In this document: piece by piece, positions 38,801 through 59,952 of the stretch
How the letters are laid out: each line of letters begins with the position of its first letter
Position numbering within the stretch: position 1 is the stretch's first letter
Assembly: GCA_044892525.1 (NCBI GenBank)
Contig: CM097885.1
Span: forward strand, 8,434,001-8,498,000
Length of the DNA: 64,000 nt
Direction of reading: 5' to 3'
Source of the DNA: Schmidtea polychroa
Taxonomy: Eukaryota
The notes under the pieces: model-generated
What the model saw: only the letters and a program-made list of their open reading frames with translations
What the model was told of the DNA's origin: nothing
The model's database searches: none
Program-made: the position numbers and the translations under genes

Positions 38801-41800
38801 GCGCTATCGTAATCTATACTAAATTATAAATATCTACACTTTCCTTTATTTAATTTATTTTTATATATTTATTTGTTTTAATGAATTGTTTATACTGTCA
38901 AATTATATTTTTGGGTCGGCTTAGAACGGACAATTGTAGGAGTATTGTAATTTATAAATTGTAATAAAGAATTGTAATTTATCAATATTTTCAAGCATTA
39001 TTAATGAACAAATAATAAACTTGACAATAAGATTGTTTTTATCCATAAACTGAACAAAAAAGTGAAGCAGTGCAAAATGACAAGTTTGTTCGAGACCCAC
39101 GAAAAAATAGAAAAGAGCGTAGTAGCATCAGTAATGCTATGGATGAATCAGAAGGTAATGCAGGTGATCTAGCAGATGATGATGCTCAATCTGAGGATAA
39201 TGATTACACAGAGAACCATTTTGGAGATGACATGATTCAAATGAGTTCTACAATGAACTTTATGTTTTGCAATAAATATATTAAATGTTTTTTTACTTTT
39301 CTTTCTTCTACTTATACACCAGTATATACGGTAATTTGTTTTTACCTAATTACATCCTGGGAATCCTCACTAAGTTTGTCATTAAACCATACCAATTTCC
39401 CCATATGAATATTATTTTTCAAATTTTCAATCAATTTTTATTTTATGCATTCTCCCAACATTTTACTAAAAATGAATCAGCATAATAAATATGCCAGGCC
39501 AAATACAGTAGGTGAGCTACTGTATGGGGTGTATAATCTTCATGTATGCCTTTTTAGGGATGCGGGCATAATTATCCATTTTCTTTTAACTTGTGTTATT
39601 GATAGAAGCCCCGATGATTTTCATATGTTTTTCTGGAGCCTTTAATCACTCTGTCTATCAGTTTGTTCTTTATGGACATGTACTCTTCATATCTGAATCC
39701 GAGTTTTCTAAATATATCGTTATTGCGTTTGTCCCATGTTCCGAGGGAGCATACCACGAATGTTTTTACTGTTGTATGTTCCCACTAACAAGTTCAAAGT
39801 AAAATACTCAATAAAAAGTTTGATTATGTCACCTATATAATAATTCTAAAATAATAATATTTCAAACCAATTTCTTTTCCCTTTCTTTCAGTTGATTGAT
39901 TTTTCTCAGTCACTCCATAACATGATTTAGAAATTTAATAAAAATTCAATTATGATAAGGTTGTGTTAAGAAAATCAATTTTTTTATTTCGTTTAAACGA
40001 ATTAATTTTTAATATTTTATAAATTTTATAAAAGTTTTCCTAATTATTTCAATATGATAGTGTGATTAATTATTATAAGAATGAAAGTTTGTATATTTTT
40101 GTTTTTTCTGTCCATATAATGCATATTTGTATAATTGATAAAATATATCAATTATTGATATAATAATTGATATATTATACCATATTAAACATAGTAAGGA
40201 TGATTGACAGACAAACTTTCATTCTCATAATGTAGATAATGTCTGAGGGATGTCGGAAGAACGAAGACAACATTTACAAGAAGCTGATAGAATTCATAAA
40301 TCAAATAATAATATTTAAACCCATATGAAATAGTGAAATAAATAAATGAAATGAAATTTAGGAAATGGAATAAATAATTTATTTTTATTGTTGATGTCAG
40401 AACTGTATCTACGCTTAGTGATTGTCTTTCAAATAAAGATATCCAATTAATACATCAAAGAACGCTGAGAAGAATGTAGGAAACAGAAAAGAATCGGAGG
40501 AAGTCGTTAGATGAAATAACTATGTTCAATTGGATTGTCGTTGCTTAACATAGTTAATGAATTTTGTTTGCAAGTTTGTATTGAATGGTGTATTAAAAAT
40601 TCTATTTCATTGATAAAATCTAAAAGTGATTCGCATGTTAAGAAATTATTGAACTTGGGAATTATTTGGTATTACTAAATTTAATGTTGAGAATACTGTG
40701 ATTAATATGAGTAAGATAGTTCTGTCTAATGAAGAGTTACGTATTTTAAAATATGGTCCTAACCATTGCATAAAAAATAGGATTGATGAAAATAAATTGT
40801 GTGCAAAAATTGAATGTGTTTATTATAATATATGTAAGTCAAATAAGGATTCTGATCTACTTACGGTAGAAAGTATGCTGAGTGCAAGTACTATTGAGTA
40901 TGTTGATAAAAATAAAAAACAGAATATTAAGGATTTTTTGGTACTGAAGAACTTAGCAAACAAAGATATTAATGTTTGTAAATTTGATAAAGGAAATGGA
41001 TTAGTGATTTTGGACCATGATGTTTATGTGAATAAATTAAATGAAGTACTCTCAGGTTCTCAATTTCTAAAAATTGATAAGTTTCGAAAAAAAGGAGATT
41101 GTCACCTCTAAAGGATGAAGTGATTTTGAATACTATGTTGTGTGATTTAGTTAAGAATAATCATATTGATGAAGAGGTAGCAAAACTAATTCATGCAAAA
41201 GGTTCACAACCAGCTAAATTATATGGACTTCCAAAAGTTCATCAAGACGGAGTTCCCATAAGACCTGTTTTATCTATGGTTGGAACAGCTCAGTATAAAA
41301 TAGCAAAGTATTTGGATGGATTATTAAAACTCTTAATAAAATCTGAGTTTAAATGTAAGGATAGTTTCGAAATTACATCATGTATAAGACAATTGAATAA
41401 AAATAATGTTAATGAGTATATGGTTTCGTTTGATGTATGTAGTTTATTTACTAATGTCCTGTTGAAAGAAACAATCGATTTATGTTGTGAATTATGGAAT
41501 GAAAATATTAGTGCGCATAATATGTGTGATGGATGTGCATTTAGGAAGCTTTTAGAGTTTGCAACTTCCAAAGTTAATTTTCTATTTAATAATGAATGGT
41601 ATGAACAAATTGATGGAGTTGCTATGGATTCGCCCTTAGCACCAACAATGGCTTCAATATTTCTGGCATGTTTAGAAAAGAAAATTGCTTCTTTTCAATA
41701 TGAAAAACCAATTGTGTATAAAAGGTATGTTGATGATATTTTTCTGATATTTAAAAATAATGAACATGTGGAACATTTTTTGGATTACATGAATGGATTG

Positions 41801-43276
41801 CATAAGAACATTGTATTCTCATGTGAAACTGAGAAGGATTCGTGCATAGCAGTAGTATGATGTGAGCTCCCCAGATCAGGAGCTCCCCGCGCCACATATA
41901 CCCCCTCCCCCCCCCCCCCCCGGGAAAAAAAAATTTTTTTTTTAATTTTTTGTTTTAATTAATTGGCCTGGCGGGCTCACACTTTTTTTCATCCCAAAAA
42001 TTAATGTTCCCACCAACGGATTTTATTGGACGATACCTCATCTTAAAGCTCAGTCCAAGACCTTTCGATTGATCCATAGAAGGTATCATCATCATTAATA
42101 TTGACAAAGTTATTAACAATCGATGACCACCATCTTTTCAACGTTAAATTATTATTATTATTCAAAATATTATTAATTGGCCGGGCGGGCTCACACTTTT
42201 TTTCATCCCAAAAATTAATGTTCCCATTATCCGAATTTATTAATCGATAGCTTATTTTGAAGCGTAGTCTGAGACCTTTCAATTGAGCCATAGAAGGTAT
42301 CATCATCATTAACATCGGCAAAGTTATTAAAGTTTTACCGAGACCATTTTTCAAGGTCATTTATTTTTCAAAATATTATTTTCAAGGTCAAGGTCAAGGT
42401 CATTTATTTTTTTTCAAGGTCATTTATTTTTTCAAGGTCATTTATTTTTTCAAGGTCATTTATTTTTTCAAGGTCATATTTTAAAATTTAAATGTACAGA
42501 GTTCCCGACAACGATAATTATTCAACGATAGCTCATTTTAAAGCGCAATGCAAGACCTTTCGATTGATTCATAGAAGGTATCATCATCATTATTATTGAC
42601 AAAGTTATTAACAATTGATGACCACCATCTTTTCAACGTTAAATTATTATTATTATTCAAAATATTATTAATTGGCCGGGCGGTGACATACTTTTTCTCA
42701 TCCCAAAAATTGATGTTCCCACCAACGGATTTTATTGGACGATACCTCATTTTAAAGCCCAATGCAAGACCTTTCGAATGAGCTAATGAAGGTATCATCA
42801 TCATTATTATTGACAAAGTTATTAACATTTTACCAAAAATCATTTTCAAGGTCATATAATTATTAATTGGCCTGGCGGGCCCCTACTCTTTTTCATCCCA
42901 AAAATTAATGTTCCCATTATCCGACCTTTCGAATGAGCCATAGAAGGTATCATCATCATTAATATTAACAAAGAGAATGACTCACCCAATGACTCACCCA
43001 ACGATGTCTAATATTTTTAGAACGATGACTCATCAAGGTCAAGGTCAAATTTTTAATAAAAGGTCAAGGTCATTTATTATTTCCAAGGTCATTTATTTTT
43101 TCAAGGTCATTTATTTTTTCAAGGTCATTTAATTTTCAAGGTCATTTATTATTTTCAAGGTCATTTATTTTTTCAAGGTCATTTATTTTTTCAAGGTCAT
43201 TTACTTTTCAAGGTCATTTAATTTTCAAGGTCATTTATTAAAATAATTATTATTTTCTAAGTTTTTAGTTTCTAAG

Positions 43277-43351
<75 letters not shown>

Positions 43352-46300
43352 CTATCCGACAAAATATTCTGTCCCCCTATGGGTATTGCTAGCAAGGGTA
43401 CTGGTCACATTCAACATGTCGCAAGGGTACTGTTTACAAAATTACTGGTAAAAATATTCAAGACAAAACTTTCTAAATTCTAAATATTATTCTTTAAATA
43501 TACACTAAAATTTATTAACACATTCACATTCATCATCTCCACAGTTCATAACATTTTCAACAACATGATCTATACAATCCCTATATACACACGGTTCAGT
43601 ATCCATAAATTCCTCCATAGGTTCATCAATTTCTTGAATGCTTTCCTCATCATTTTGAGTGTTTTCTTCATCTGTTTCATCAAATTTCGAATCTTCACTC
43701 TCTGCTACCCAGTCTATATTTAATGCGTTTGTAACAGATAATATATCCGCCATTTTCACACCAGATATTTCTGCTAATTTTTCCAATAAAAAGTTTATTA
43801 TAAATTCTAAATATTAAATAATTCGATAATTAACTAATCATATTAACCTTTTTCTGTAGTCATTATTAGTATTTTAAAACTATAGTATATATTTGTTTAT
43901 AGAAAATATAGAATATAAGCGAAAACAAATATGACTAAATACATTTATTAAATACAACATTAAAATAACTGTGAAAGTCTAGCAGACATAATTTTCCAAA
44001 TTGGAGAATACACATCATTATTATCAACTTTATATCCTTGGATTGTAATTGTTATATACCAATTTTCGTTTTCTTTGAAACTGATTTCATCAAAGGAATC
44101 ATAAAATTTTGCATATCGGTTGTTGAAAAATGCATTTTGATTGCATGATAGATTCGTATTCAACCTTTTGAAAACATCATCTATGGTTTTAATATCTAAC
44201 ATTGAAAGCGTGCCGGTTAAGCTGTTAATTCTACATTTACCAGTTTTGAAATATATTATTGGATATTTATTACTTCTATTGATAAGTTGTTGTGGTTTCC
44301 CTATTGGAAATACCATTTTTGATACATCAGTTTTTGCCCTGTAATTTATATTTGAAAGCATTTTAATGAAATAATTTTAAAAACTTTGATATATATAGGT
44401 ATTTAAAAACAGAGTTCATTTAAATTATCAATATAAACAATAATTATATAGTTTAAATTTAAAAAATGGAATTACGAAATGATGCAGTATACCAAATCGT
44501 TGGTCCAAGTGGTAGCGGGAAAACTTTATTTGTTTGTAAATTACTAAAATCAAATTTGTTTAAAACAAAATTCAACAATATTTATTGGCATAGGGGCGCC
44601 GACGAAGAACACGGATTGACGCAATCAAGTTTCTGTCAGTTGAAAAACATGAAAATAGTAAAGGGCTTTGATAAAAACTGGTCAAGTCGTTTGAAGAAAG
44701 ATGATGTCATCATTATCGATGATTTGTATCAAGAAGCCAATAAAGAAAAGGACTTTAATAATTTATTCACAAAAATCAGCAGACATGTTGGTGTAACAGT
44801 TATTTTCATAACACAAAATCTATTTCATCAAGGTGGTGCACATCGAACACGTAATTTAAATGTACAATATTTAGTTATTTTCAAGAATCCTAGAGATGCA
44901 ACTGTCATTGATTTTCTTGGACGACAAGCATACCCTAATAACCGTAATTTTCTTATCAGTGCATTTCAAGATGCCACGAAAATACCGCATGGGTATATAT
45001 TTCTCGATTTCACACAACAATGCCCTGATGATATACGGGTAAAAACAGATATTTTCAACCCAAAAGGTGCCATGGTATATAAACAAAGTTCAAAACAAAT
45101 TTGAAAACATATAAATCATGTTTTCAAAAACAAGGATATCGGGTAAAAAACAACCAAAAGTTCCACCAACAACTAGTTATACTCCATCTAAAGATCTTAT
45201 TACAGAAAATTTTCCTGCAATGAATCTTATTTCGAAAAATCCTAAACCTAAACCTAAAAGTAAAACCACTAAGAAAGTAAAAGTTGTTAAAAATCATCGG
45301 AGTTTCCCGTTTTTCAATACATTGTTAAAGGCACCAAGTATGAAAAGAAACAGTATTTTGCAATCATTTCCAAATTATGTTGTCGATGATTTACTCGATA
45401 TTATACTTAAAGTAGTCAAAGGCAAGATTAAAATCAGTAAATCTAAAAAGCAATTATTGAGTAAACATAGGAAACCTTTGCTATCATTAGTAAATAATAA
45501 AAATCGTCAACAAATGAGAAAAATTATATATAAACAACAAGGGGGATTTATCGGTGCATTGATACCTTTAGCAATATCATTATTAGGTGGAATAATAGGA
45601 AGTCGATCATAAACAATGGGTGCTAATCCTTCATTACCAGACATTAAATTTAATATTAAATCTTCTTGTTGTAATGGAGAAGATTTGGACGAACCCGGAA
45701 GACGAAGCCGGTTTTGGTGGAGTGGCAAAATTAAGGAAAAGAGTTCCGAATTCGAAAAAGGAAACTCAGAAGTGGTTATCAGACCAGCTTGCGTACAGTT
45801 TGAACAAACCAATGCAGAAACGATTCCCAACAAGAGCATATAAAACATATGGAATAAATGATTTATGGCAAATGGATTTGATGGAGATGATACCTTATTC
45901 GAAAATTAACAATGGGTATAAATATATTTTAACATGTATTGATGTATTCAGTCGGTTTGCCCGAGCAATACCCGTCAAGGCAAAATCTGCAGATGAAATG
46001 TCCAAAGCTGTTAATCATTTATTTAAAGATGGACATCCTAAAAACTTGCAAACTGATTTAGGTATTAATATTATTATTTTTATTATTATTATTATTATTT
46101 TAGGTAAAGAATTCTACAACAGTAAAGTCAAGCAAATCCTCAATAAAATGAAAATAAACCATTACTCAGTACATTCTCAATACAAAGCTGCTCATGTTGA
46201 AAGATTTAACCGAACTTTGAGAGATAGATTAAAGAAATTATTCGTGCATCAAGGTAATAAAAAATGGGTATTGATTTTACCAAAAATAATAACCAGTTAT

Positions 46301-49300
46301 AATCACTCATCACATCAAGGACTGAATGGATTAAGGCCGATTGATATCACGTCAAAAACAATCTATTCTAAAAAACCTGAAAAAATTACAAAACCGAAAT
46401 ATAAAGTAGGTGACCATGTTAGAATTAGTAAAATTAGTGCATCACCATTTATTAAAAATTTTGATACGAATTGGAGTGATGAAGTCTTTGTAATTTCAAA
46501 AATAAATACTAAACAGAATCCTGTAATGTATGTCATCAAAGACAATGATAACAATATTGTACAAGGAAAATTTTATGAGCAGGAATTACAAGTTATTCCT
46601 CCCCCAAAAGTATTTAGAATTCAGAAGATTTTGAAAACTAAAAATAAAGGCAAGGATAAACAATACTATGTCAAATGGCATGGTTATCAAAACCCATCAT
46701 GGATATCAGAAAAGGATCTAGTAAAGTGAATTTTTATACTATTTTACCAAGCAATAGTTGCCCGCTTATTCATCCAGATAATCAAGCCAGTAAATTCATG
46801 GTCAATCTCCAGAATCCGATTTCTTTAAATGGTGACTGGGAAGTTGCACTGCAAGATTTTACATTCGTGTACAATACATTCCCATTTTATAGTCAATGTA
46901 AGATTGATTTCAAAAGGAATGCTATGAAAACATGTAGTGGTATCTTTATTATCAGTAATTATGATAAAACATCATATTCCGAATCAAATATTAGATCAGC
47001 ACTGCTCTATGTTTTACAAGGATGGATTAAATATCAGTTGTGATTTTAAACCATTTACAATAACATTCGAATATATTGAAGATGCCAAACGATTGGGTTG
47101 CAATAAGTTGAAAAATGAAGTTATGGAAACAGATTACTTATTACGCTTTGATCTATTTGAAGCAAACAGTGTAATGAGAGAAGAAATCAAAATATCAGTG
47201 TCGTATAATAATGAAGTTGAAGAATCATTCACCTTCGCTGACGAATTATATATTGATAAACTTGATGTGTTACTTAAATATTTAAAGTATAATTGTTCAC
47301 ACATATTTAAAAGTTTGGACATTGTGAAAGATTTGTTATTTACCTTCAGTTTGAATGATGACATTTGCGAAGTTACATTTGATAAAAATTTGACAAATAC
47401 ACTTGGATTAGAGAAGCAGCAATATCGGGAAAAATCGGCTGGTATACGTAAACCAAGAATACTTGAACATCATCAACAAATGTTCATATATACTAATATT
47501 ATTGAGCCTATAATAGTTGGTGATTCCAGTGTTCCTCTATTGAAATCGGTGTGGATTGGAAAATATGAACATGATGAAGTTGTCAATATAAATATAGATA
47601 ATCCCATGTATTTACCAATTTCAAGCTCATGTATAAACAATATAGAAATAAATATTCGTGACGATAGTGGAAAACTTATAAACTTCCCAAAAGACTCAAA
47701 AACTCATTTGACACTACATTTTCGTAAAGTAGATGGCTAATTCCGATATTATTAGTATGTATAGTGATAGCCAATCTGGTGGTGAATTACCATATTTTAT
47801 TGGTAAACAGTATGGATCAGGTTGGTTAAAAACAATAGGGAGATTTGCACTTCCCATTCTTAAACGTATTGGTAGTTTTGGCATGAAAACTGCAAAAGAT
47901 GTGATTATGAATGAACAGAAAATATTACCATCCCTAAAAACAAATGCTTTAGCTGAGTTAGGGAAGGTTCTACCTGGAGTTGCTGGTATGTTTCAAAAAG
48001 ATACACCTCCAGTCCCAGCTCCAAAACGTAAAGGGCATGGAATATCGCGTATAAACAAACGAATGAAAGGACATGGAACTATATTTGCAAAATGATTTGT
48101 GGTAAATCCGAATTATGTATATTTGATAGACCGTCGCCCCAGGCAGTAATAGAATTTGGTGCCTTTGAGGAAGTTTTTCCTATGAATTCAATTACTGATA
48201 GTAGAAATGATATCGAGTTTTATATTAATGGTTCGCAAACTGAATATTTAGATTTGAACGATACTTTATTGACTGTTCAGATCAAGGTTGTAGATAAAGA
48301 TAGAAAGGTTTTGGATGCCAATGCGGATGTATTACCAAACAATTTCATGTTTCATACTCTGTTTAAAGATGCAGTGTTGGGATTTAATAATATCAAGATT
48401 GAGGGTGGAAATAATACATTCATTCACAAGGCTTTGATAGAAACTATTTTAAATTACAATTCAGATACTAAAAATACCTGTCTTACACCTATGGGTTATG
48501 CAGCAGCAGATGATGAAAGAAAAAAGTGGGTTAAAGGTTCAAAAGTATTCACTATGTGCTCATCATTACAACTTGATTTTATGGATCAACCGAAATATTT
48601 ACTACCGGGAGTTAATATACATATTAGACTGAAAAGATCTGATTCTGCATTGTCTCTTACTAGTGCAACTGGTGCACCAATATGTCAATTAGTTGATGCA
48701 AAATTATTGGTGAGAAGAGTTCGAGTAGACCCGTCAGTATTAGCTGGTCATCAATTGGGGCTTAATTCAAAACATGCAATTTATCCTTTAAAAACAAAGG
48801 AAATTGTACAATTTGCTATTGCTAAAGGTGCTTCATCATTCTATAAAGAACAAATATTTGGTGACAGAAGAATGCCTAATTTTATTCTGGTAACATTTCA
48901 AAGTGAAACGCAATATAATGGATCGTATACTGCTTCCAGCTCAAATTTCAAAAATTTTGGTGTTACTTCATTGACTTTATCGAAAAATACTGATTATAGA
49001 GAAACATATACTCAAGATTTCGAGAATGATAATTACTGTGCGACATATATGCAGAGTATTGTTAGAAATCTGGGTTATTTAGATAAAAACTTGAATTGCG
49101 GAATAACTCTTGAAGAATTTAAAAGCAAATACCCATTTTTCACATTTGTTTTAGCTCCCGATTTTGATTTAAATCAGAGTCAATTACCACAAAACGGGAA
49201 TTTACGACTGGATATAAAGTTTGCAAAGGCCATTACTGAACCAGTACATGTTATAATATATGGAGTATTTGAAAATGAAGTTCAAATTACTGCAAATAGA

Positions 49301-49757
49301 ACCGTGCTAGTATAAATGTATACAGAAACACCAAAAAGTTGTCATGGAGTAAGCTTTTCAATACTGTTTAATTTATTAAAGTAGTTCTGTTCAGGTCAAT
49401 AGAATTGGAAAACAGATATTGGGAAATGAATTTGTAGGAGTTTTTCCTCTCGATAAAATCCCATATTTGAGCAATAATCAAGCCATAATCGTCAATACTC
49501 AATCGTCTCATCTTGGTGGAGAACATTGGATTGCTATATATGTGAAACCTAGTAATATATTCGTGTTCGATCCTATGGGTTTCTATTACCCTGCTTTGTT
49601 GGTATCAAAACTACAAACAATGGGGAAACCTATTGTATATAATAAAACAATGTTTCAAAATCCCTTGACACAAACATGCGGTCAACATTGTTTAGCTTGG
49701 TTGTTGTATAAAAAATTTGATGATTAATAAATGTATTTTGTATCCTTTGTTGTTGTT

Positions 49758-49788
<31 letters not shown>

Positions 49789-52556
49789 TTATTTCTATTA
49801 TATGAGCTACTAACGAATTAAAATATTTTAATAATGTGATAAACTTTTATTTAATAAAGTATTTAATCCCCAAATGATTATTTTATTACATAAGAAACCG
49901 TGAATTGTATTTGGCAGAGTAATTATGATAAATTCCGATTTTAAATTTTGATTAAGTCCTTTAATATTAACAATTTATTATTAAATTTACTATTTTACAC
50001 TAAATATTTCAAAAACAAATATTCCAAAAGATAATTTAAGATACATTACTCTTTTTAATGAAAATGAGCACTGAAAGTTAAAAGGTACACTCGAAAACTC
50101 ACTCAAATATAACCGAAAGTTATAAAACAACAAAACTAAATTCGTTTAAATATTTTATAGCAATTGGTAGTTCTTATAATTTCCTAACTTTAATGAAGAT
50201 TCTTACCACCTGAGAATAATATTGTTAATTTATCTCGGTGTTATTAAAATTATCTTTCGACTTTACGCTTCTTACCATTTTAGAATAAGATTTTTTATCA
50301 AATTTGACTGATTCAATTTGATGGAGTTATTGTTAATTCGTTTTATTATATATACTCTGAGTTTATCTGACAAGATATTTTCTCCCTCTATGGGTACTGT
50401 TCACAATTGGTACTGCTCGTAAGGGTACTGGTCGTAAAGGTACTGGTGTGTTTTATTTAGGCAAATTTTTGGTTATTATTTAGCATTAAATTCATTGGTA
50501 ATTTTTTAGAGTTAGCGGGATTTTACTAACATTTTTTTTTGTGAATTTCATGTTAATTGAAAGAATATTTAAGGTTTAGTGTTAATTCTAAGATAAATTT
50601 AATTAATTTCTTGATAATTTGCTATATTTTATTAATTTTGATGATGATGATGACTTTGTAATGATAATTTGACTAAATAATTTTTTCATATATTTTTCTA
50701 AGAATATTTACACATTGATGAACTTTAAAATATTGAAAATCTAAAGTTGAAACAATCTAATTTTTTCACGGTGATGATATATTTAAAATCTACTTGAAAA
50801 TTATTGTAAAATATACCTAAATTTAGTTTGAAAGATATATCATGTTATAATGGTTATAATTATGATCAATCAATGAGATATTATCATCTCTAGTTAGGTA
50901 TTTGATGACACATGTGGTTAAATATTTATTTTAATGAATTTTGATCTTTTAGTGGACTCTTTGAATTTAGCTACTAAATTATTTCAATGGAAGAATGTCT
51001 GTGACAATTAAATAAAATTCATATTTTGAAGAATTTTCTATAGATTTTAAGATTTATTAAAGGGCACAAGTGGGTGAAATTATATTCGGTTGGATTTAGT
51101 GAAGGTTAAGATGGTAATATATACGATTTAAGGTGTTTTAAGGGGTAAAGATATTTGGTGAGGGATCGGTTAATGTTTTGAATATTTATATATTCTTATT
51201 GGTAAAATATCAAATTTTCAAGGGAAATAGTCAGCTATGAATAGTTCCTGTGAAATTATATCGTTTTAGAGGTTGTGATGAATGTTATTGCACAGTAATT
51301 TATGTTTCAGAACCAGTTTTTATTAATTATCCACGGTTTTATTAATGGGTAATGACTAATTTACTTGGTTTTGACAATGCAATATTTGAAATATTTAGAG
51401 ATAATTGATATCAAAGGTTATTGCTTTAAATTATTTTATTTAACATTTAAAGACGGACATTCATTATGAAGATAACGGTAACAAAAATATTGACTTAAAA
51501 GAGTTAGACATCGACAACTAAAGAAAATTTAACTTTCATGAAGGAAATTTATGATTTTAATTATATTTCCTGAAATTAAATAGGTTGAATATCAGTTAAT
51601 CTATTGAAGGAATATTGTTATCGGATGGATAAATGATATTTTGCTAAATTACCTTTGCTAAATATTATTTTAAATGACTAAAAATAACAAAATTAAGCAA
51701 TATTCATAAATTTATCGCACAAAATGTCCATGTTTTGGTTACTCAAACATCTTAAATTTCTCGCAAAGATATATTACGTCTAATGATCATCTAATTAAAT
51801 TAGAAAATAATTGTTACTTTATAATATATATTTCTAAATAATAGGCCCCTTAATTGGATAAATGATAACCATATTTCTATTATGACTCCTTTAATTATTT
51901 TTGCCTCAAACAAATTTACTCCAAATGATAAAGAATTTAAAATTATCAATGAATAATGACCATGTTTTTCTCATATTATTAACTATTGTAACGAACATTA
52001 GATGAATAAATTAATTTTTGCTTTAAATGACTACAAAGTTAACCAATAAATTAGTCGCTCGACATAAGTGTAAAGTTACATTTAAAATATTCACGAATTT
52101 CTGATCATCTCACTAAATTACCTAAGAATTTCTAAATGATTAATATAGCCTTGTGACATGTTGAATGTGACCAGTACCCTTGCTAGCAATACCCATAGGG
52201 GGACAGAATATTTTGTCGGATAGACTAGGAGTATATACACCCATGTTAAACAAGGTATGTGTATATAGAATGTATGTATAAAATTATCGCTCCATATTGA
52301 CAACTTCCTGTAAAGGCAAACACAGAATACTGCAAACATAATAATACTCTACCCCATAACTTAGTGTGTAAAAATTATTTAAGGTTTTTTCACTAATAAT
52401 AATAATAATTATAATAATAATAATAATAATAATAATAAAGTTTAATGGATTGTATATATGTGTAAAAAATATTTGAGGTTTTCACGAATATTGTTACAAA
52501 TAATTGTTAATGGGTTGTGTGTGTGTGTGTAAAAATATTTTAGGTTTTTAATATTG

Positions 52557-52621
<65 letters not shown>

Positions 52622-52855
52622 GTTTAATGGGTTGTATATGCGTGTAAAAAATATTTGAGGTTTTCACGAATATTGATAATAATAATGGTTTATGAGTGTT
52701 TTTATGTTTTTGACTAATATTTGCAATAATAATAATAATAAGTTTAATGAGTTGTATGTGTGTGTAAAAATATTTTAGGTTTTTAATATTGATAATAATA
52801 ATAATAATGGTTAATGGGTTGTGTGTGTAAACCATATTTTAGATTTTTCATTAAC

Positions 52856-52903
<48 letters not shown>

Positions 52904-53417
52904 TCCCGCGCGTGTTAATACTTTAAAAGAAAATATTGAAAATTTAAAAAATAATAATATTTATGCAAAGCATGTGCAATAATTATGTCTTTGTTAATTA
53001 AGTAAACTTTAGTATCAAAATACGTTTTTAAAATATATTTAAATTTTAAAATACCGCAACGTAATATATTTTGTTCTACCCCTTCATTGATTTAAGTTGG
53101 TCGGAATTTAATAATAATTATATTATACCCTTTGAGACATGTTGAATGTGAGAAGTACCCTTGTAACCATTACCTATGTAAGCAGTACACATAGGGGGGC
53201 AGAATATCTTGTCGGATAAACTCTGACTATATATGATAATAATAATAATAACTCCCGTGCGTGTTAAAATAAATAATAATACTTTGAACTTGTATTTGAA
53301 AATAATTTACGACATGTTGAATGTGAGTAGTACCCTTGTGACAATTACCCATGTGAGTAGTGCCCTTGTGAGCAATACCCTTAGGGGGACAAAATATCTT
53401 GTCGGATAGACTAAGAG

Positions 53418-53470
<53 letters not shown>

Positions 53471-54077
53471 TTAATATTAATAATAATAATAAATGACCTT
53501 GAAAAATAAATGACCTTGAAAAAATAATATTTTGAAAAAATAATATTTTGAAAAAATAAATGACCTTGAAAAATTTAATGATCACTTAATTAAAACAAAA
53601 AATTAAATTAAAAAATAACCTTGAAAAAAAAAAGACCTTTATGAGTCACGCGACCTTGAAAAAATAAATGACCTTGAAAAATAAATGACCTTGGGAATGA
53701 CCTTGAAAAAATAAATGACCTTGATGAAGCAGATGAAGAAAACACTCAAGATGATGAGGAAAGCATTCAAGAAATTGATGAACCTATGGAGGAATTTACG
53801 GATACTGAACCGTGTGTATATAGGGATTGTATAGATCATGTTGTTGAAAATGTTATGAACTGTGGAGATGATGAATGTGAATGTGTTAATAAATTTTAGT
53901 GTATATTTAAAGAATAATATTTAGAATTTAGAAAGTTTTGTCTTGAATATTTTTACCAGTAATTTTGTGAACAGTACCCATGTTACTTGTTGAGTGTGAG
54001 TAGTACCTTTGTGAGCAATACCCATAGGGGGACAGAATATCTTGTCGGATAGACTAGGAGTATATAATAATTATAAT

Positions 54078-54120
<43 letters not shown>

Positions 54121-57100
54121 CTTAGAAACTAAAAACTTAAAAAAAAAAAATAATAATAAATGACCTTGAAAAAATAAATGACCTTGAAAATAATAAATGA
54201 CCTTGACCTTTTATTTAAAAATTAAATGACCTTGAAAAAATAAATGACCTTGAAAATAATAAATGACCTTGACCTTTTATTAAAAATTTGACCTTGACCT
54301 TGATGAGTCATCGTTCTAAAAATATGATGAGACAACGAATGAGTCATTGTCTTTGTTCTAAAAATGTGATGAGTCATTGTATGATAGAAATCTATATCTC
54401 ATTAGAAAGGTCTTGGACTGAGCTTTAAGATGAGGTATCGTCCAATAAAATCCGTTGGTGGGAACATCAATTTTTGGGATGAAAAAAAGTAGGGGCCCTC
54501 CCGGCCACTTAATAATATTTTGACAAATAATAATAATTTAACTTTGAAAAGATGGTGGTCATCAATTGTTAATAACTTTGTCAATAATAATGATGATGAT
54601 ACCTTCTATGAATCAATCGAAAGGTCTTGCATTGGGCTTTAAAATGAGCTATCGTTGAATAATTATCGTTGTACATTTAAATTTTAAAATATGACCTTGA
54701 AAAAATAAATGACCTTGAAAAAATAAATGACCTTGACCTTGATATTGAAAATAATATTTTGAAAAATAAATGACCTTGAAAAATGGTCTCGGTAAAACTT
54801 TAATAACTTTGCCGATGTTAATGATGATGATACCTTCTATGGCTCAATTGAAAGGTCTTAGACTACGCTTCAAAATAAGCTATCGATTAATAAATTCGGA
54901 TAATGGGAACATTAATTTTGGGATGAGAAAAAGTATGTCCCCGCCCGGCCAATTAATAATATTTTGAATAATAATAATAATTTAACGTTGAAAAGATGGT
55001 GGTCATCAATTGTTAATAACTTTGTCAATATTAATGATGATGATACCTTCTATGGATCAATCGAAAGGTCTTGGACTGAGCTTTAAGATGAGGTATCGTC
55101 CAATAAAATCCGTTGGTGGGAACATTAATTTTTGGGATGAAAAAAAAGTGTGAGCCCGCCAGGCCAATTAATAATATTTTGGAAAATAATAATAATTTAA
55201 CGTTGAAAAGATGGTGGTCATCAATTGTTAATAACATTAAAACTATTAAAGATATATATGATACCTATAGCTCATTCGAAAGGTCTTGGACTGGGCTTTA
55301 AGATGAGGTATCGGTCAATAAAATCTGTTAACGAGAACATTAATTTTTGGGATGAAAAAAAGTGTGAGCCCGCCAGGCCAATTAATTAAAACAAAAAATT
55401 AAAAAAAAAAATTTTTTTTCCCGGGGGGGGGGAGGGGGTATATGTGGCGCGGGGAGCTCCTGGTCTGGGGAGCTCCAATCCTACTACTCATAGCATTTCT
55501 TGGCTTGTTAATTAAACAATATTAATGTCCAATATTAAAGATCATAATAAAGTCTGTATGAGAGAATTAGGAATGTCGGATTTTAAAATCTTATCAAAAA
55601 ATATTTTTTCAATAAAAATTTGAGAACTAGAAGAAATTTTGGTGCAACAAAAACAGCATATTGACAACATATAATAGACATACATGGTAGATAGATATGG
55701 TGGTCAAGAAATAAAGTTATTTATTTCTTAATTGCACGATATTATTCGAGTTCAAAGTTTGAGATAAGTTATAAAGAACAATGAACTTATAATTTTTACA
55801 CAATTACATGAAACTGTTAAGATTTTGTTAAGAGTTGAATACGAAAAATAAGTCAAAACTAACTGATTTATAATTTTAACCTTAATGCAGATATTGACCA
55901 CAAATATTTTTTATTGATTTAAAATAATATATACGGAATTTTAATTAGCTAAATTAACTTAAATTTGTTTTAATTTAAAATGAGCTTTTAGCAACTTAGA
56001 AAAATAATGATTGCAAACTAGTAATTTTTATCGATTTGTTTAAGTTAGAATAAAGGAAATACCTATCTAATACGGTATTTTTATAGTTATATAGTATAGT
56101 TATATACAGGGCCGGCTTTAGTTGGAAGCGGTGGATGCAAAGCATCGGGGCGCCTCTCGGAAAGGGCGCTAAACAATTTAGAATTTTAGTTTCTTTTTAA
56201 TATTTAACAAAAAAACCATTAACAAATTTTTTTTTAACAAGAATTTTTTTTTTTTTTTTAAATAAAATTTCCTTGAAAAACTACTGGCCTACTAGTTTTC
56301 GAAGTGTTTAAGAATTGTTTAATTTCGCAAAACAAAATAAATTATACATGCATAAATTTATTTTGAAACGGCCTGCTATATTCGGTTTAGTTATTTCGAT
56401 TAAAAAAATTAATGCTAAAAAAAATTATTTTAAAAGTCTACCAGTTCTATTCAGTTTTCAATCAGTTCAGTTGTTATTTGGTAAACTTTTTTCGCTAATA
56501 AAAAAAAATTTAATATTAAAATTTTAATAGTAAAATAAAAAAGTGTTCAGTACAGTTTAATAGTAAAAAAGTGTTTTGTTTCAGTACATTAGTTATTTTG
56601 CGGAATTGAATCATTGTACGGTGGTAGGTATTATTTAATTATTTTTATCTTTACTTCTAAAATTTATATTTTTTTAATTAAAAAAATTTTTATTAGCTTA
56701 CCTATATCATAAAATATGAATTCAAAGACAAAATTATCCGGGTGTGAAAATCGAAAACGAAAGGCGAAGAGAGAGTTGGAGGAACAAAAAAATCAGGGAA
56801 GCCTTAACCAATATTTAAAAAAAGCAAATTTGACAATACCTACAATAACGTTAACGGATGATCAGATTATTCCAGAGGATAGCACAAATGGTGAAGTTAG
56901 AAATAATGCCACTAATGAGACACAATCTATAAATTTACAAACAGAAATAACATCTTCATCTAACAAAGAGCTTCAAACCATACATTTAACTGAAACTATA
57001 AGTAATAGTGCTGATTTTCATTCAATTGATCCCGCAACTTGGCCTAAATTTATTAATGATAAAATTAGAAAAATTATTATTGAGCAAGGACCAATGCAAA

Positions 57101-59952
57101 TAAGGAAAGAAGTTTATCCCCGTGATGATGATGGACGAAGTTTTACTAATTATTATTACAATCGTAAATTACCTAATAATGAAATTATACCAAGATCATG
57201 GTTAGTTTATTCAAGTTCAGCAAACCGTGTTTTCTGTTTTTGTTGTAAATTGTTTATAAATCAAATAGAAGGAAACCAGCATTTGATTATAAATGGTTTT
57301 AGTTGCTGGAGAAATTTGTCAAAAACACTTGCAGCTCATGAAGTTAGTACATTACATGTTAATTGTTTTTTAAAGTGGACTCAATTAAAAAAGAAAATGA
57401 ACAACTTAACTACAATAGATGCTGAACTCGTAAAAGTATACGCAGTTGAAAAGAAACATTGGTACGCTGTTTTGGAGAGAATTGTCGAAATCATAAAATA
57501 TCTTGCCAGACAATGGCTGTCTCTGCGTGGCTCGTCAGATACTATCTATGAAAAAAATAACGGTAACTTTTTAAAATTTGTAGAACTTTTTTCTAAATTT
57601 GACATAGTAATAGCAAATCATTTAGCAAAGATACAAAAAAAGGAGACACAAACAGTTCATTATTTAGGCAAAACTATACAAAATGAAATAATATCCTTGA
57701 TCTCTTCGAAAATTTTGCAAAATATTATTCAAATGATAATTAATGCCAAATATTTTTCTCTAATATTAGATTGCACTCCTGATATTAGTCATAACGAACA
57801 AATGATATTTATAGCCAGATTTGTCAATAAAGATGAAGATAATGAAGTTGCAATAAGCGAACATTTTTTGGGATTTTTAAAAGTATCTGACTCCACAGGA
57901 AAAGGTTTAGCAACTTATCTTATTGACAACATTAAAGATTTAGGTTTGAATATTAATGATCTACGTGGACAAGGTTACGATAATGGCGCAAATATGCATG
58001 GGAAAAATAATGGTGTCCAAAAACGTATTTTAAATTTGAATTCTCGTACACTTAATTTAGTAGTGAATGATGCAGCCAAAATTAACACAGAATCATTTAG
58101 TTTCTTTTCCACTATTCAAACAATTTATAATTTCTTAAGCGCTTCAACAAAACGATGGGAGTTCTTAAAAAAAATACTAAAATTACAGTAAAACCTTTGT
58201 CAGCCACCAGGTGGGAATCAAGAGTCGATGCCCTTCGTCCACTTAGGTTTGAAATAGCTGAAATTTTAGATGCTTTAGTTGACATTTATGAAAACCTAGA
58301 AATAGATAATAATACAAAGCATGAAGCTAAGGCTGTGGCTTTCAAAATAAAAGAGTATGAATTTATATGTTCAGTGGTTATTTGGTACGATGTTTTAAGT
58401 AAAGTTAACGTTGTTAGTAAACTGCTCCAAAATCCAAATCAAAACTTAAATGTTTCTTCAGTTGCGTTAAATAGTCTTATTAAATTTATTGAAGAATATA
58501 GATCCGATGAAAATTTTAGTCTTATTCTTCAAACGGCAGAAAATATAGCAGCTGATTTAGAAATACCTGCGAAATTCAAAGATAATACGTTACGAAGAAG
58601 AAAGAAAAAAATTTTTGGTTATGAATCTGTAGACGAAACGCCAGTTGATCCGATACTTAAATATAAAATATCATTTTTTCTGCCAATTTTAGATATTACT
58701 ATCAATTCTTTAAAAGAAAGGTTTAATCTTTTCACAAAATATAGTGAAAAATTTGAATTTATACATAATATAAAAGAAATTAACAAAATGGATGATAATA
58801 CATTAAAAAAACATTGTTCTGATTTAGAAATAATGCTAACCGATGGCGAGAAAAAAGATATATCTGCAACAGAATTATTTAATGAAATAAAAATAGCAAA
58901 GGAATTTTTGAAAGACTTTGAAAACCCACTAAACATCTTGCAATATATATATAAAAATCTACTGGATTCCATTTTTCCCAATTTTGTAATTGCTATTAAA
59001 ATATTTTTAACTTTACCAGTTTCAGTTGCTAGCGGAGAACGATCTTTTTCGAAGCTTAAACTAATTAAAAATTATTTAAGATCAACAATTTCACAAGAAA
59101 GATTAGTTGGTTTAGCAATGATATCGATTGAAAGTGATATATGCGACAAATTAGATATACATAATTTAATTGATGAATTTGCCAGTTTAAAAGCTAGAAA
59201 AGTAAATATCTAGAATAATAGTTTTGTCAATTTTTATACAAAATATATGTATGTTATGTAATTTTTGTATATTATAATATTGTTTCAATAAAATAAAAAA
59301 ATATATAAACAAAATAAAACCTGTTTTTCACTTGGAAAAGAATTATTATTAATTTTTTAATGTTTTTATTACAAATTTAATATTGCCAATTAAATTACGT
59401 TAATTCCAAAAAACCAATAAAATAAATGGGCGTCTAAAATGAGTTTCGCATCGGGGCGCTACTAATGCTAGAGCCGGCGCTGGTTATATATAGCTAGAAT
59501 AATTTTAAACCATTTTCAAATATAAAATGTACACAATAGTTCCACATTTGAAACTTTAATTCTTCTAGGATTATTTTAGCTGTGCAGGATGCTCATATTT
59601 TCTTAACAAACCTTCTAGTTCGAATTGCGTTTTAGTTGATGTGATAAGACAATTGGGAGGAGTTCCATTTGTTAGAACTACTGTTCCACAATCTATGATG
59701 AGGTTCGGTTTGCTTGTTGTGAGAACAGACTTTTATTTATATCAGCTTTCTTTCATCCAACCCAATTGATGGGATTACACTAAATCCAATCGATATTTCA
59801 AAGTCTCCGGGTGGTAGCAGTTCGGGTGAAGCAGCTTTAATAGGTGGGCATGGATCGATTGTTGGAATTGGGACTGACATGGGAGGGTCGATTCGTATAC
59901 CGGCTGCGTTTTGTGGTATTGTTGGGCTGAAACCGACTCATGGACGTCTGAG
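35858..59952 (+). CDS. FAAH: Fatty-acid amide hydrolase-like amidase; exons ~35858-36061, 36101-36211, 36255-36308, 37928-37999, 59569-59702, 59746-59952; 3' exons not found in window
   Basis: N-terminal TM helix; [23 protein letters not shown] (catalytic Lys); [54 protein letters not shown] (amidase signature). Phases are consistent across GT-AG introns. The first, in-frame intron is less certain. Confidence 0.88.
36640..37900 (+). repeat. Near-pure AT degenerate tandem satellite in FAAH intron
   Basis: The block ataatataattgtaatagaaataaacataaataaataataataatacagataaaaa recurs at roughly 200-bp spacing. Confidence 0.75.
38447..39331 (+). mobile_element. Non-autonomous pogo/Tc2-like DNA transposon
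   Basis: TA-flanked TIRs CCGTATATACT / AGTATATACGG, with a second left end at 38621. A C-terminal transposase remnant [11 protein letters not shown] plus an acidic tail lies at ~39120-39230. Confidence 0.7.
40698..41850 (+). pseudogene. Penelope-like retroelement reverse transcriptase (frameshifted), split by the Polinton and continuing at 55495-55524
   Basis: [59 protein letters not shown]. Removing the Polinton and one TSD copy restores [18 protein letters not shown]. Confidence 0.9.
41851..43683 (+). repeat. Left inverted arm (~1.83 kb)
   Basis: Reverse-complement match to 53721-55488, comprising the terminal GC block, ~214-bp units, TCAAGGTCA arrays, (ATT)n, a ~90-bp motif and the 3' end of the acidic ORF. 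Confidence 0.9.
43505..43863 (-). CDS. Small acidic protein with Cys-containing C-terminus; 2 exons (43863-43848, 43806-43505)
   Basis: ATG at 43863 plus a 41-nt GT-AG intron (43847-43807) gives in-frame [21 protein letters not shown]...[10 protein letters not shown]...CGDDECEC. Confidence 0.6.
43960..44361 (-). CDS. 133-aa protein; TBP-like N-terminus, possibly OB-fold/SSB-like C-terminus
   Basis: The ATG-initiated ORF diverges from the ATPase gene. LSNINYRA and [11 protein letters not shown] recall TBP NIV and LIFxSGKxV strands. The functional call is tentative. Confidence 0.5.
   Translation of the reverse strand: MLSNINYRAKTDVSKMVFPIGKPQQLINRSNKYPIIYFKTGKCRINSLTGTLSMLDIKTIDDVFKRLNTNLSCNQNAFFNNRYAKFYDSFDEISFKENENWYITITIQGYKVDNNDVYSPIWKIMSARLSQLF
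44466..45104 (+). CDS. A32/FtsK-HerA-like genome packaging ATPase
   Basis: Walker A GPSGSGKT, Walker [36 protein letters not shown] and PHGYIFLD. Confidence 0.93.
   Translation: MELRNDAVYQIVGPSGSGKTLFVCKLLKSNLFKTKFNNIYWHRGADEEHGLTQSSFCQLKNMKIVKGFDKNWSSRLKKDDVIIIDDLYQEANKEKDFNNLFTKISRHVGVTVIFITQNLFHQGGAHRTRNLNVQYLVIFKNPRDATVIDFLGRQAYPNNRNFLISAFQDATKIPHGYIFLDFTQQCPDDIRVKTDIFNPKGAMVYKQSSKQI
45118..45612 (+). CDS. Basic core-protein precursor with C-terminal amphipathic peptide
   Basis: Lys-rich, ending [25 protein letters not shown] as is typical of Polinton small structural ORFs. TATA-like tatataaa at ~45076. Confidence 0.75.
   Translation: MFSKTRISGKKQPKVPPTTSYTPSKDLITENFPAMNLISKNPKPKPKSKTTKKVKVVKNHRSFPFFNTLLKAPSMKRNSILQSFPNYVVDDLLDIILKVVKGKIKISKSKKQLLSKHRKPLLSLVNNKNRQQMRKIIYKQQGGFIGALIPLAISLLGGIIGSRS
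45616..45843 (+). CDS. Putative overprinted N-myristoylated small protein (75 aa)
   Basis: aaacaATGG start 3 nt after the upstream stop; MGANPS (MGxxxS) followed by SSCC. It overlaps the integrase 5' end in another frame. Confidence 0.5.
   Translation: MGANPSLPDIKFNIKSSCCNGEDLDEPGRRSRFWWSGKIKEKSSEFEKGNSEVVIRPACVQFEQTNAETIPNKSI
45674..46729 (+). CDS. Retroviral-like (rve) integrase with C-terminal chromodomain; 42-nt intron at 46062-46103
   Basis: DDE triad WQMDL / QTDLGKEF (after splicing) / [27 protein letters not shown]; chromodomain [12 protein letters not shown]. First ATG (MEKIW) is at 45674. Confidence 0.93.
   Translation: MEKIWTNPEDEAGFGGVAKLRKRVPNSKKETQKWLSDQLAYSLNKPMQKRFPTRAYKTYGINDLWQMDLMEMIPYSKINNGYKYILTCIDVFSRFARAIPVKAKSADEMSKAVNHLFKDGHPKNLQTDLGINIIIFIIIIIILGKEFYNSKVKQILNKMKINHYSVHSQYKAAHVERFNRTLRDRLKKLFVHQGNKKWVLILPKIITSYNHSSHQGLNGLRPIDITSKTIYSKKPEKITKPKYKVGDHVRISKISASPFIKNFDTNWSDEVFVISKINTKQNPVMYVIKDNDNNIVQGKFYEQELQVIPPPKVFRIQKILKTKNKGKDKQYYVKWHGYQNPSWISEKDLVK
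46726..47740 (+). pseudogene. Minor capsid (penton-like) protein; GTG start and one frameshift near 46940-47040
   Basis: The N-terminal [26 protein letters not shown] and C-terminal [44 protein letters not shown] are in different frames. Confidence 0.8.
47733..48095 (+). CDS. Core/membrane-active precursor (pVII/cupiennin-like) upstream of MCP
   Basis: [30 protein letters not shown], with a basic tail containing KGHG repeats. Confidence 0.8.
   Translation: MANSDIISMYSDSQSGGELPYFIGKQYGSGWLKTIGRFALPILKRIGSFGMKTAKDVIMNEQKILPSLKTNALAELGKVLPGVAGMFQKDTPPVPAPKRKGHGISRINKRMKGHGTIFAK
48092..49315 (+). CDS. Double-jelly-roll major capsid protein (Polinton PY/hexon-like), 407 aa
   Basis: [73 protein letters not shown]. 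The start overlaps the upstream stop (ATGA). Confidence 0.92.
   Translation: MICGKSELCIFDRPSPQAVIEFGAFEEVFPMNSITDSRNDIEFYINGSQTEYLDLNDTLLTVQIKVVDKDRKVLDANADVLPNNFMFHTLFKDAVLGFNNIKIEGGNNTFIHKALIETILNYNSDTKNTCLTPMGYAAADDERKKWVKGSKVFTMCSSLQLDFMDQPKYLLPGVNIHIRLKRSDSALSLTSATGAPICQLVDAKLLVRRVRVDPSVLAGHQLGLNSKHAIYPLKTKEIVQFAIAKGASSFYKEQIFGDRRMPNFILVTFQSETQYNGSYTASSSNFKNFGVTSLTLSKNTDYRETYTQDFENDNYCATYMQSIVRNLGYLDKNLNCGITLEEFKSKYPFFTFVLAPDFDLNQSQLPQNGNLRLDIKFAKAITEPVHVIIYGVFENEVQITANRTVLV
49316..49727 (+). CDS. Adenain-like cysteine protease; 2 exons (49316-49348, 49395-49727)
   Basis: FVGVFP; VNT..GEHWIA (His); FDPMG (Asp); FQ..TCGQHC (Gln/Cys). ATG follows the MCP stop directly, a 46-nt GTAAGC...TTCAG intron restores the frame, and AATAAA overlaps the stop. 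Confidence 0.85.
52340..52860 (+). repeat. Degenerate tandem repeat with (AAT)n spacers inside the element
   Basis: Recurring ttaatgggttgt...tgtgtaaaaatattt(g/t)aggtttt, about 6 copies. Confidence 0.7.
53721..55488 (-). repeat. Right inverted arm (~1.77 kb)
   Basis: Mirror image of the left arm, with substitutions and a different number of ~214-bp units. Confidence 0.9.
56107..59482 (+). mobile_element. hAT transposon (Tip100/ZMYM1-like), 3,376 bp
   Basis: TIRs CAGGGCCGGC / GCCGGCGCTG, with an exact 8-bp TSD GTTATATA (56099-56106, 59483-59490). gcatcggggcgc occurs near both ends. Confidence 0.93.
56716..59213 (+). pseudogene. hAT transposase with TTF zinc finger, frameshifted near 58165
   Basis: [58 protein letters not shown]. 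It is split into two overlapping ORFs at an A-run, and the CxxH segment is missing. Confidence 0.9.

What the first reader, a model, noticed from the sequence alone, without database searches (positions are those of the whole stretch)
41851..55488. Polymerase-less Polinton-like element that keeps the virion and integration module
Seen: both termini and the TSD are present, so nothing is lost to the window edge. ATPase, integrase, MCP, protease and core ORFs are open, yet no ORF or pPolB motif is visible anywhere inside, including the 4-kb ORF-free 49730-53720. Established: Polintons are defined by pPolB plus integrase, and AGT-repeat termini are protein-priming origins. Inference: this is a helper-dependent, capsid-donating satellite or defective virus replicated in trans. 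The alternative is a one-off deletion derivative.
Basis: partly seen in the sequence, partly recalled or inferred. Interest (0 to 1): 0.85.

Follow-up and report, generated by a model that had tools for sequence, protein, structure and literature searches.

The report
Polymerase-less Polinton hybrids with satellite arm
This virus-like jumping element keeps its capsid and integration genes but has a gene-less stretch where its DNA polymerase should be, as do many sister copies in the same genome, and they likely spread by borrowing the polymerase of full-length relatives.

Summary
Observation confirmed: a 13.6-kb Polinton/Maverick insertion with both ends and a 6-bp target duplication. It carries ATPase, integrase, capsid and protease genes and no trace of pPolB.

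It is neither a one-off deletion nor a separate satellite virus. The gene block is about 99% identical to that of full-length, PolB-bearing siblings. At a (TTA)n tract behind the protease it is joined to one arm of an abundant gene-less palindromic element with the same ends.

Such hybrids are common: 27 of 60 position-ordered copies, seven junction classes overall, and 21 of 21 with both ends found have their own target duplication. Their cores interleave with full-length cores, and 10 of 21 have mismatched ends. A reciprocal PolB-only palindrome also exists.

Best reading: defective, recombinant genomes copied in trans by the siblings' polymerase (inferred). Capsid donation is unsupported: siblings encode their own capsid, and this copy's penton is frameshifted.

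PolB-lacking, amplified Polintons were reported in insects (preprint). This scan had already noted the gene-less palindromes elsewhere in this genome; my look-ups showed no note on the hybrids.

The parts
41845..41850 (.). left copy of the 6-bp target-site duplication CATAGC
41851..43683 (+). left terminal inverted repeat; AGTAGTA end, internal tandem repeats
43505..43753 (-). 82-aa acidic ORF, function unknown; its 3' part recurs in the right repeat
   Evidence: no Pfam family
43960..44361 (-). fused remnant of a TBP-like gene and a 139-aa gene; about 0.6 kb present in 10 of 10 copies is missing at 44221-44226
   Evidence: PF00352 2.8e-15 for the sibling's gene
44466..45104 (+). A32-type packaging ATPase, 212 aa, open
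   Evidence: PF04665 E 2e-7
45118..45612 (+). 164-aa basic protein, open; core-protein role is inference
   Evidence: no family over cut-off
45674..46729 (+). retroviral-type integrase with chromodomain; predicted 42-nt GT-AG intron at 46062-46103
   Evidence: PF00665, PF00385; intron from sequence only
46675..47740 (+). minor capsid (penton) gene, frameshifted near 46970 in this copy
   Evidence: a sibling's 355-aa frame folds like mavirus penton, E 1.4e-8
47733..48095 (+). 120-aa ORF, open, function unknown
48092..49315 (+). double jelly-roll major capsid protein, 407 aa, open
49316..49727 (+). adenoviral-type cysteine protease; predicted 46-nt GT-AG intron at 49349-49394
   Evidence: PF00770 E 1.2e-6; intron from sequence only
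49750..49795 (.). (TTA)n tract where the gene block joins the gene-less arm; full-length siblings go on here towards PolB
49788..53720 (.). one arm, plus part of the central spacer, of a gene-less palindromic Polinton-type element; lacks about 1.8 kb at 52136-52236 that other arms carry
53721..55488 (-). right terminal inverted repeat; differs from the left end at 4 of the first 48 bases
55489..55494 (.). right copy of the target-site duplication CATAGC

Best explanation
This is a hybrid Polinton in which the capsid-and-integration block of a full-length family is joined, at an AT microsatellite, to an arm of a gene-less palindromic relative, and it is likely a defective genome copied by the polymerase of full-length siblings. 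Shown: the architecture, shared ends, several junctions, separate target duplications, near-identical copies at unlinked sites, mosaic cores and ends. Inferred: (1) full-length, gene-less and hybrid genomes replicate together as free linear DNA, primed at the shared AGTAGTA ends by sibling pPolB; (2) the polymerase switches template, or genomes recombine, at the (TTA)n tract behind the protease, which replaces the PolB half by a satellite arm; (3) the hybrid is re-copied, its ends are sometimes re-matched, and it is integrated by its own or a sibling's integrase. Packaging into particles is possible (13.4-16.5 kb against 16.4-17.7 kb) but untested.
For: Helper present: 5 of 10 copies fetched around the capsid gene carry full-length PolB homology behind a 99%-identical core and the same ends; the frame read has exonuclease and polymerase motifs. 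Frequent and recurrent: 37 of 90 core copies (27 of 60 taken by position) run into the satellite arm, through 7 junction classes at one tract, and 0 of 90 run straight into the terminal repeat. Inserted as such: 20 of 20 other hybrids with both ends found have a perfect, different 6-bp duplication. Multiplied without PolB: the window copy and two unlinked copies share the junction and differ by 0.3-0.7 per thousand over 3 kb; three further such pairs exist. Recombining pool: hybrid-to-full-length distance 0.64% against 0.52% among full-length; 14 of 28 hybrids have a full-length copy as nearest neighbour; four-gamete violations 27% under 100 bp and 43-53% beyond. Ends: 10 of 21 hybrids have mismatched ends inside a perfect duplication, 11 have matched ends of several types. 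Reciprocal product: a 12.1-kb palindrome with two PolB frames, the same ends and its own duplication.
Against: No free DNA, particle or transcript was observed. PolB was verified for only 14 of 33 position-ordered copies classed as PolB-side, from capped or exact-match lists, plus 5 of 5 read in full. The seven junctions may partly be nested deletions of one hybrid. Four of the 27 lie within 80 kb and two form one inverted duplication, which leaves 23 of 56. Some four-gamete violations can be recurrent mutation. The origin of the satellite arm was not found. Mobility through the integrase and host repair alone is not excluded.
Confidence: 0.72

Rival explanations
1. Hybrids arise on the chromosome, by gene conversion or break-induced template switching between integrated full-length and gene-less copies, and never replicate as free genomes.
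For: 2007 matches of an arm 20-mer and 240 of a core motif give abundant templates; AT microsatellites are break-prone (general knowledge); mosaic haplotypes.
Against: Near-identical hybrids with one junction sit at unlinked sites with different duplications. Mismatched ends reach to within 8-13 bases of a perfect duplication, which conversion would have to reach without touching the flank. Every junction class with more than one member recurs at several loci.
Confidence: 0.12
2. The PolB-less form is an evolved, cooperative capsid donor, and with PolB-only palindromes forms an incipient two-part virus.
For: 17 of 26 hybrids keep 9 of 9 checked frames open. A same-family PolB-only palindrome has its own duplication, and a second outward-facing PolB pair is listed but unread. 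Sizes cluster near full length. AAV snapback genomes have been given regulatory roles (PMC8235507, abstract).
Against: Hybrids form no lineage of their own. Variants shared with full-length copies are 34 silent to 3 replacement, those shared only among hybrids 9 to 11 (Fisher p 0.0002), although young variants are always less purged. Full-length copies that need no partner are the majority. PolB-only forms are rare (2 outward pairs among 55 exact matches). Open frames are expected in copies under 1% diverged.
Confidence: 0.08
3. The hybrids need no helper: their own integrase moves them by cut-and-paste and host replication or repair multiplies them, like Ginger-type transposons.
For: The integrase frame is open in 23 of 26 hybrids, and all have 6-bp duplications.
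Against: Does not explain snap-back palindromes, shuffled and re-matched ends, or gene-less elements with the same ends that need factors in trans anyway.
Confidence: 0.06
4. Misassembly or a single post-insertion deletion.
For: One palindromic hybrid (L183/L165/L184) has inverted flanks and no duplication, so fold-back artefacts or chromosomal fold-backs occur in this assembly.
Against: The exact junction occurs at 4 unlinked sites; 21 hybrids have their own duplications; the ORF-free part has no homology to the parent's PolB half beyond microsatellite and a repeated end motif.
Confidence: 0.02

Closest known systems
Polinton/Maverick elements (pPolB plus integrase; PMC5499653 listing, PMC8097293 passages)
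   Same: Terminal inverted repeats with a repeated end motif, 6-bp duplication, integrase, ATPase, protease, major and minor capsid genes; full-length siblings of about 17 kb.
   Different: No pPolB; that half is replaced by a gene-less arm. Predicted introns, whereas intact vertebrate elements were found intronless.
polB-lacking polintons of insects (bioRxiv 10.1101/2025.02.07.637071, section 13 read)
   Same: Keep the other hallmark genes and the terminal repeats, lack polB, appear to have amplified after the loss, and coexist with polB-bearing relatives.
   Different: There a LINE cargo accompanies, or an LTR element replaces, polB in a few elements, and the mechanism is left open. Here the replacement is an arm of the family's own gene-less satellite, recurs at one tract in about 40% of core copies, and has a reciprocal PolB-only form.
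Defective and snapback genomes of DNA viruses (AAV snapback genomes, PMC8235507 abstract)
   Same: Subgenomes that keep both ends, carry only the replication side or only the capsid side, and include palindromes.
   Different: Here they are fixed as chromosomal insertions of a protein-primed element; interference or help was not measured.
Non-autonomous Polintons (Kapitonov and Jurka 2006; recalled, not read)
   Same: Share ends with an autonomous partner and depend on it.
   Different: Recalled as lacking most genes; this form keeps the whole virion and integration block.
Satellite viruses and virophages; Tlr elements and Polinton-like viruses without pPolB (PMC4028283 passages, PMC5499653 listing)
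   Same: Capsid module without pPolB.
   Different: Those are old separate lineages, many with another replicase. This one is 99% identical to its helper and encodes no substitute replicase.

Membership tests
Polinton/Maverick (autonomous) | terminal inverted repeats with repeated end motif | tested here: met
Polinton/Maverick (autonomous) | 6-bp target-site duplication | tested here: met
   CATAGC; 20 of 20 other hybrids with both ends found
Polinton/Maverick (autonomous) | retroviral-type integrase | tested here: met
   PF00665 over cut-off
Polinton/Maverick (autonomous) | protein-primed PolB | tested here: not met
   present in siblings
Polinton/Maverick (autonomous) | ATPase, protease and double jelly-roll major capsid protein | tested here: met
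Polinton/Maverick (autonomous) | open penton gene | tested here: not met
   frameshifted in this copy; open in 23 of 26 hybrids; fold from a sibling
Defective (DI-type) genome | derived from a co-resident parent, keeps cis-acting ends, lacks an essential gene | tested here: met
Defective (DI-type) genome | multiplied after losing the gene | tested here: met
   near-identical hybrids at unlinked sites with different duplications
Defective (DI-type) genome | replicated by the helper's polymerase; interferes with the helper; packaged | not testable with these tools
   inferred only
Satellite virus | own lineage, distinct in sequence from the helper | tested here: not met
   cores interleave with full-length cores at 0.64% distance
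Satellite virus | capsid genes under purifying selection within the satellite lineage | tested here: inconclusive
   9 silent to 11 replacement variants among hybrid-only shared sites; small numbers, young variants
Polinton-like virus or Tlr element | substitute replicase (helicase, PolA or primase) | tested here: not met
   no further long frame; no Pfam family in 6 of 6 read-through frames of the ORF-free part

The most novel reading that the evidence does not exclude
The genome preserves a Polinton splitting into a multipartite colony: capsid-and-integrase genomes, PolB-only snap-back genomes and gene-less palindromes share one set of ends, swap arms at a fixed hot spot, keep near-packageable length, and complement each other in trans, so that the two partial forms could propagate together without a full-length copy.
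Probability: 0.15. Interest if true: 0.88.

Novelty: new variant of a known kind. Interest (0 to 1): 0.6.

Why it matters
How Polintons replicate is still inferred from gene content. Dozens of young polymerase-less insertions with their own target duplications (about 100 by extrapolation), shuffled ends and a reciprocal PolB-only form are genomic evidence that pPolB acts in trans on free, recombining genomes. The hybrid junctions are unique markers, so the question can be tested by sequencing free or nuclease-protected DNA and by comparing strains. It also offers a mechanism for the swapping of replication and capsid modules reported across these viruses (10.64898/2026.10.13.758929, sections 11 and 13) and for the open case of polB-lacking insect polintons. 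Surveys that require PolB would miss about 40% of the capsid-gene copies of this family.

Tried and rejected
Decayed pPolB inside the element: rejected.

Hidden coding in the arm: two divergent arm variants show no codon periodicity (35 of 134 mismatch spacings divisible by three, control ATPase 40 of 52; 7 of 38 indels). The alignment is noisy, and a spliced gene is not strictly excluded.

tRNA-like genes in the arm: ARAGORN found 0 in the window stretch and 0 in 6 of 6 loci. Rfam gave only sub-threshold matches.

Expression: no RNA holder listed. The four runs laid were contigs only and show neither splicing nor levels. No evidence either way.

Origin of the arm: only 2 lone arm matches of 2007 were read for this purpose; one was another arm variant, one a rearranged stretch beside PolB fragments of another lineage. 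Left open.

One search gave 3 matches that are not the family's PolB and is not used.

The palindromic hybrid L183/L165/L184 was dropped as evidence: inverted flanks, no duplication. L053/L054 (nested in another element) and L158/L177 (ends not in the stretches) were left out of the end and duplication counts; L154, L166 and L167 had no right end fetched.

Pfam did not report the PolB family for the sibling's polymerase; the assignment rests on 59% identity to PF03175-positive frames and on motifs.

Flip-flop hairpin isomers as the cause of end variation: considered by eye, not seen.

The host species was not established; two paper searches used a guessed host name.

Full report
1. Observation. 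The element runs from 41851 to 55488, with AGTAGTA ends, a CATAGC duplication and inverted arms of about 1.8 kb. It interrupts a reverse-transcriptase frame (PF00078). The ATPase, integrase and protease are confirmed by Pfam. The 407-aa protein folds as a double jelly-roll capsid protein. A sibling's 355-aa frame folds like the mavirus penton; in the window this gene is frameshifted near 46970. About 0.6 kb present in 10 of 10 first-fetched copies is missing at 44221-44226, fusing a TBP-like gene and its neighbour. Three searches found no pPolB trace: tblastn, best E 0.3; own-genome profile, best E 0.52 with a positive control at E 0; Pfam, 0 of 6 frames.

2. The family. The genome is 781 Mb; the species was not established. 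The capsid protein gave 102 scored matches at about 100%, and a motif at the protease end occurs 240 times. Of 10 copies read on both sides, 5 carry full-length PolB homology behind the protease and 5 do not. One sibling frame of 1365 aa shows the exonuclease and polymerase motifs (motif names recalled). An end pattern, which misses at least one end variant, occurs 1114 times. So most elements with these ends lack the core motif.

3. What fills the gap. The ORF-free part matches the parent's PolB half only in microsatellite and a repeated end motif. It matches, at 92-99% over about 2 kb, each arm of gene-less elements with the same ends. Five such palindromes of 12.7-15.1 kb and one asymmetric element of 8.1 kb have their own duplications. 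An arm 20-mer occurs 2007 times. The window element is therefore left end plus gene block, then part of the spacer and one arm of such an element, joined at a (TTA)n tract with a few bases of shared sequence.

4. How often. Of 90 core copies classified, 53 continue towards PolB, 37 into the arm and 0 straight into the terminal repeat. Thirty of these were picked for likeness to the window's capsid protein (10 hybrids). The 60 taken in order along the largest contig gave 27 hybrids (45%, 95% interval 33-58%), or 23 of 56 after merging a local cluster of four and one inverted duplication. Extrapolated, that is about 100 hybrids. PolB was confirmed for 14 of the 33 PolB-side copies from capped lists, and 0 of 27 hybrids had such a hit within 8 kb. 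The 37 fall into seven junction classes of 13, 9, 6, 3, 3, 2 and 1; some may be nested deletions. Besides the window, 20 of 20 hybrids with both ends found have a perfect and different duplication, at 13.4-16.5 kb against 16.4-17.7 kb for 4 full-length copies. PolB hits in their stretches lay in the flanks only.

5. Copying and recombination. The window's exact junction occurs at 4 sites. Three of them differ by 0.3-0.7 per thousand over 3 kb of core; the fourth has another core haplotype. Among 48 cores (20 PolB-side, 28 hybrids) the two kinds interleave: mean distance 0.64% between kinds, 0.52% among PolB-side copies, and 14 of 28 hybrids are nearest to a PolB-side copy. Four-gamete violations rise from 27% under 100 bp to 43-53% beyond. 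The window's arm is only 83-86% like its sisters' past about 50860 but 99.5% like other arms, so it recombined again. Ends differ at 4 or more of 48 bases in 10 of 21 hybrids, 1 of 4 full-length copies and 1 of 6 gene-less elements; the rest match, in several end types. Mismatched ends inside a perfect duplication point to exchange before integration (inference).

6. The reciprocal form. L188/L189 is a 12.1-kb palindrome with the same ends, duplication GAGACT and two PolB frames 98.6% like the sibling's; it matches the window element only in the terminal repeats. Two PolB palindromes of other lineages also have duplications. Among 55 exact matches of a family PolB 24-mer there are 2 outward-facing pairs, one unread.

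7. Capsid donor? 17 of 26 hybrids keep 9 of 9 checked frames open (protease not checked), as expected for young copies. Variants shared with PolB-side copies are 34 silent to 3 replacement; those shared only among hybrids are 9 to 11 (p 0.0002; without the selection-biased capsid gene 19:3 against 5:10, p 0.0015). Young variants are always less purged, so this is absence of support, not disproof. Full-length siblings carry their own capsid genes, and the window copy is among the most damaged.

8. Mechanism. Most likely (0.72) these are defective recombinant genomes, made by template switching at the tract and copied by sibling pPolB from shared ends. The anatomy and population pattern are shown; free replication, helper use and packaging are inferred. 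Rivals are conversion on the chromosome (0.12), cooperative two-part virus (0.08), integrase-only movement (0.06) and artefact (0.02). No expression evidence was obtained.

9. What is known. By definition Polintons encode pPolB and integrase (PMC5499653, search listing), so this is a derivative and not an autonomous member. A preprint reports insect polintons that lack polB, some with an LTR element in its place, apparently still amplifying, with the mechanism open (10.1101/2025.02.07.637071; passages and section 13). Module swapping across these viruses is described in 10.64898/2026.10.13.758929 (abstract, sections 11 and 13). Vertebrate Mavericks: about 17 kb, intronless when intact, virion genes under purifying selection (PMC8097293, passages). 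Reported gene loss has tended to remove the capsid module instead (PMC4028283, passages). AAV snapback genomes: PMC8235507, abstract. Passages of PMC11131425, PMC6431247 and 10.1101/2023.08.22.554363 showed nothing on such hybrids. Kapitonov and Jurka 2006 is recalled only. Nine searches listed no paper whose title or abstract start describes hybrids between a Polinton core and a palindromic satellite arm; I did not read most listed papers, subscription papers are missing, and preprint supplements, which may bear on the insect cases, could not be seen. Earlier notes of this scan describe the gene-less palindromes, the TBP-like gene, polymerase introns and copy-back elements in this genome; I had found the first two before looking. 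Searches returned nothing.

10. Verdict. Real feature; a new variant of a known kind. The single copy is a damaged member, but the population it belongs to is a well-resolved record of trans-replication and recombination in Polintons. Interest 0.6.

Noticed in passing
L188:1752-7801 with L189:1-6067: PolB-only palindrome of the same family, 12.1 kb, two full PolB frames facing outward, own 6-bp duplication.
   Followed up: partly
L087/L088 and L089/L090: PolB palindromes of two other lineages with other end types and 6-bp duplications; one holds only the 3' part of the gene.
   Followed up: partly
window 46062-46103 and 49349-49394: Predicted short GT-AG introns in the integrase and the protease; another family's integrase frame (L060:9603-9860) ends just after the same motif.
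   Followed up: partly
L059:4310-4774 (-): Full-length siblings encode a 154-aa TBP-like protein (PF00352).
   Followed up: partly
L060:2409-6506: The family's PolB holds an endonuclease VII-like zinc motif (PF02945, below cut-off) and an asparagine-rich repeat near its start.
   Followed up: no
window 43348-43430, 50327-50444, 52146-52237, 53136-53441, 53975-54066: A roughly 85-bp motif occurs once per end in full-length copies but several times per satellite arm; a candidate cis signal.
   Followed up: no
L052:4022-4120 and L076:3782-3880: Weak Rfam match to metazoan SRP RNA (29.6 bits, gathering 70) within the 1.8 kb of arm that the window copy lacks.
   Followed up: no
L065/L066 and L053/L054: Nested insertions: a full-length copy and a hybrid each sit inside gene-less arm sequence.
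   Followed up: partly
L183/L165/L184: Perfectly palindromic hybrid centred in the capsid gene, with inverted flanks and no duplication; fold-back artefact or chromosomal fold-back.
   Followed up: partly
window 40707-41844: The element interrupts a reverse-transcriptase frame (PF00078) that reads on for a few codons past the right duplication.
   Followed up: partly
window 56716-59213: hAT-type transposase in two frames (PF14291, PF05699).
   Followed up: no
window 36600-37900 and 26334-26452: A very AT-rich repeat array (GC 8-17%) and a 12-bp tandem repeat.
   Followed up: no
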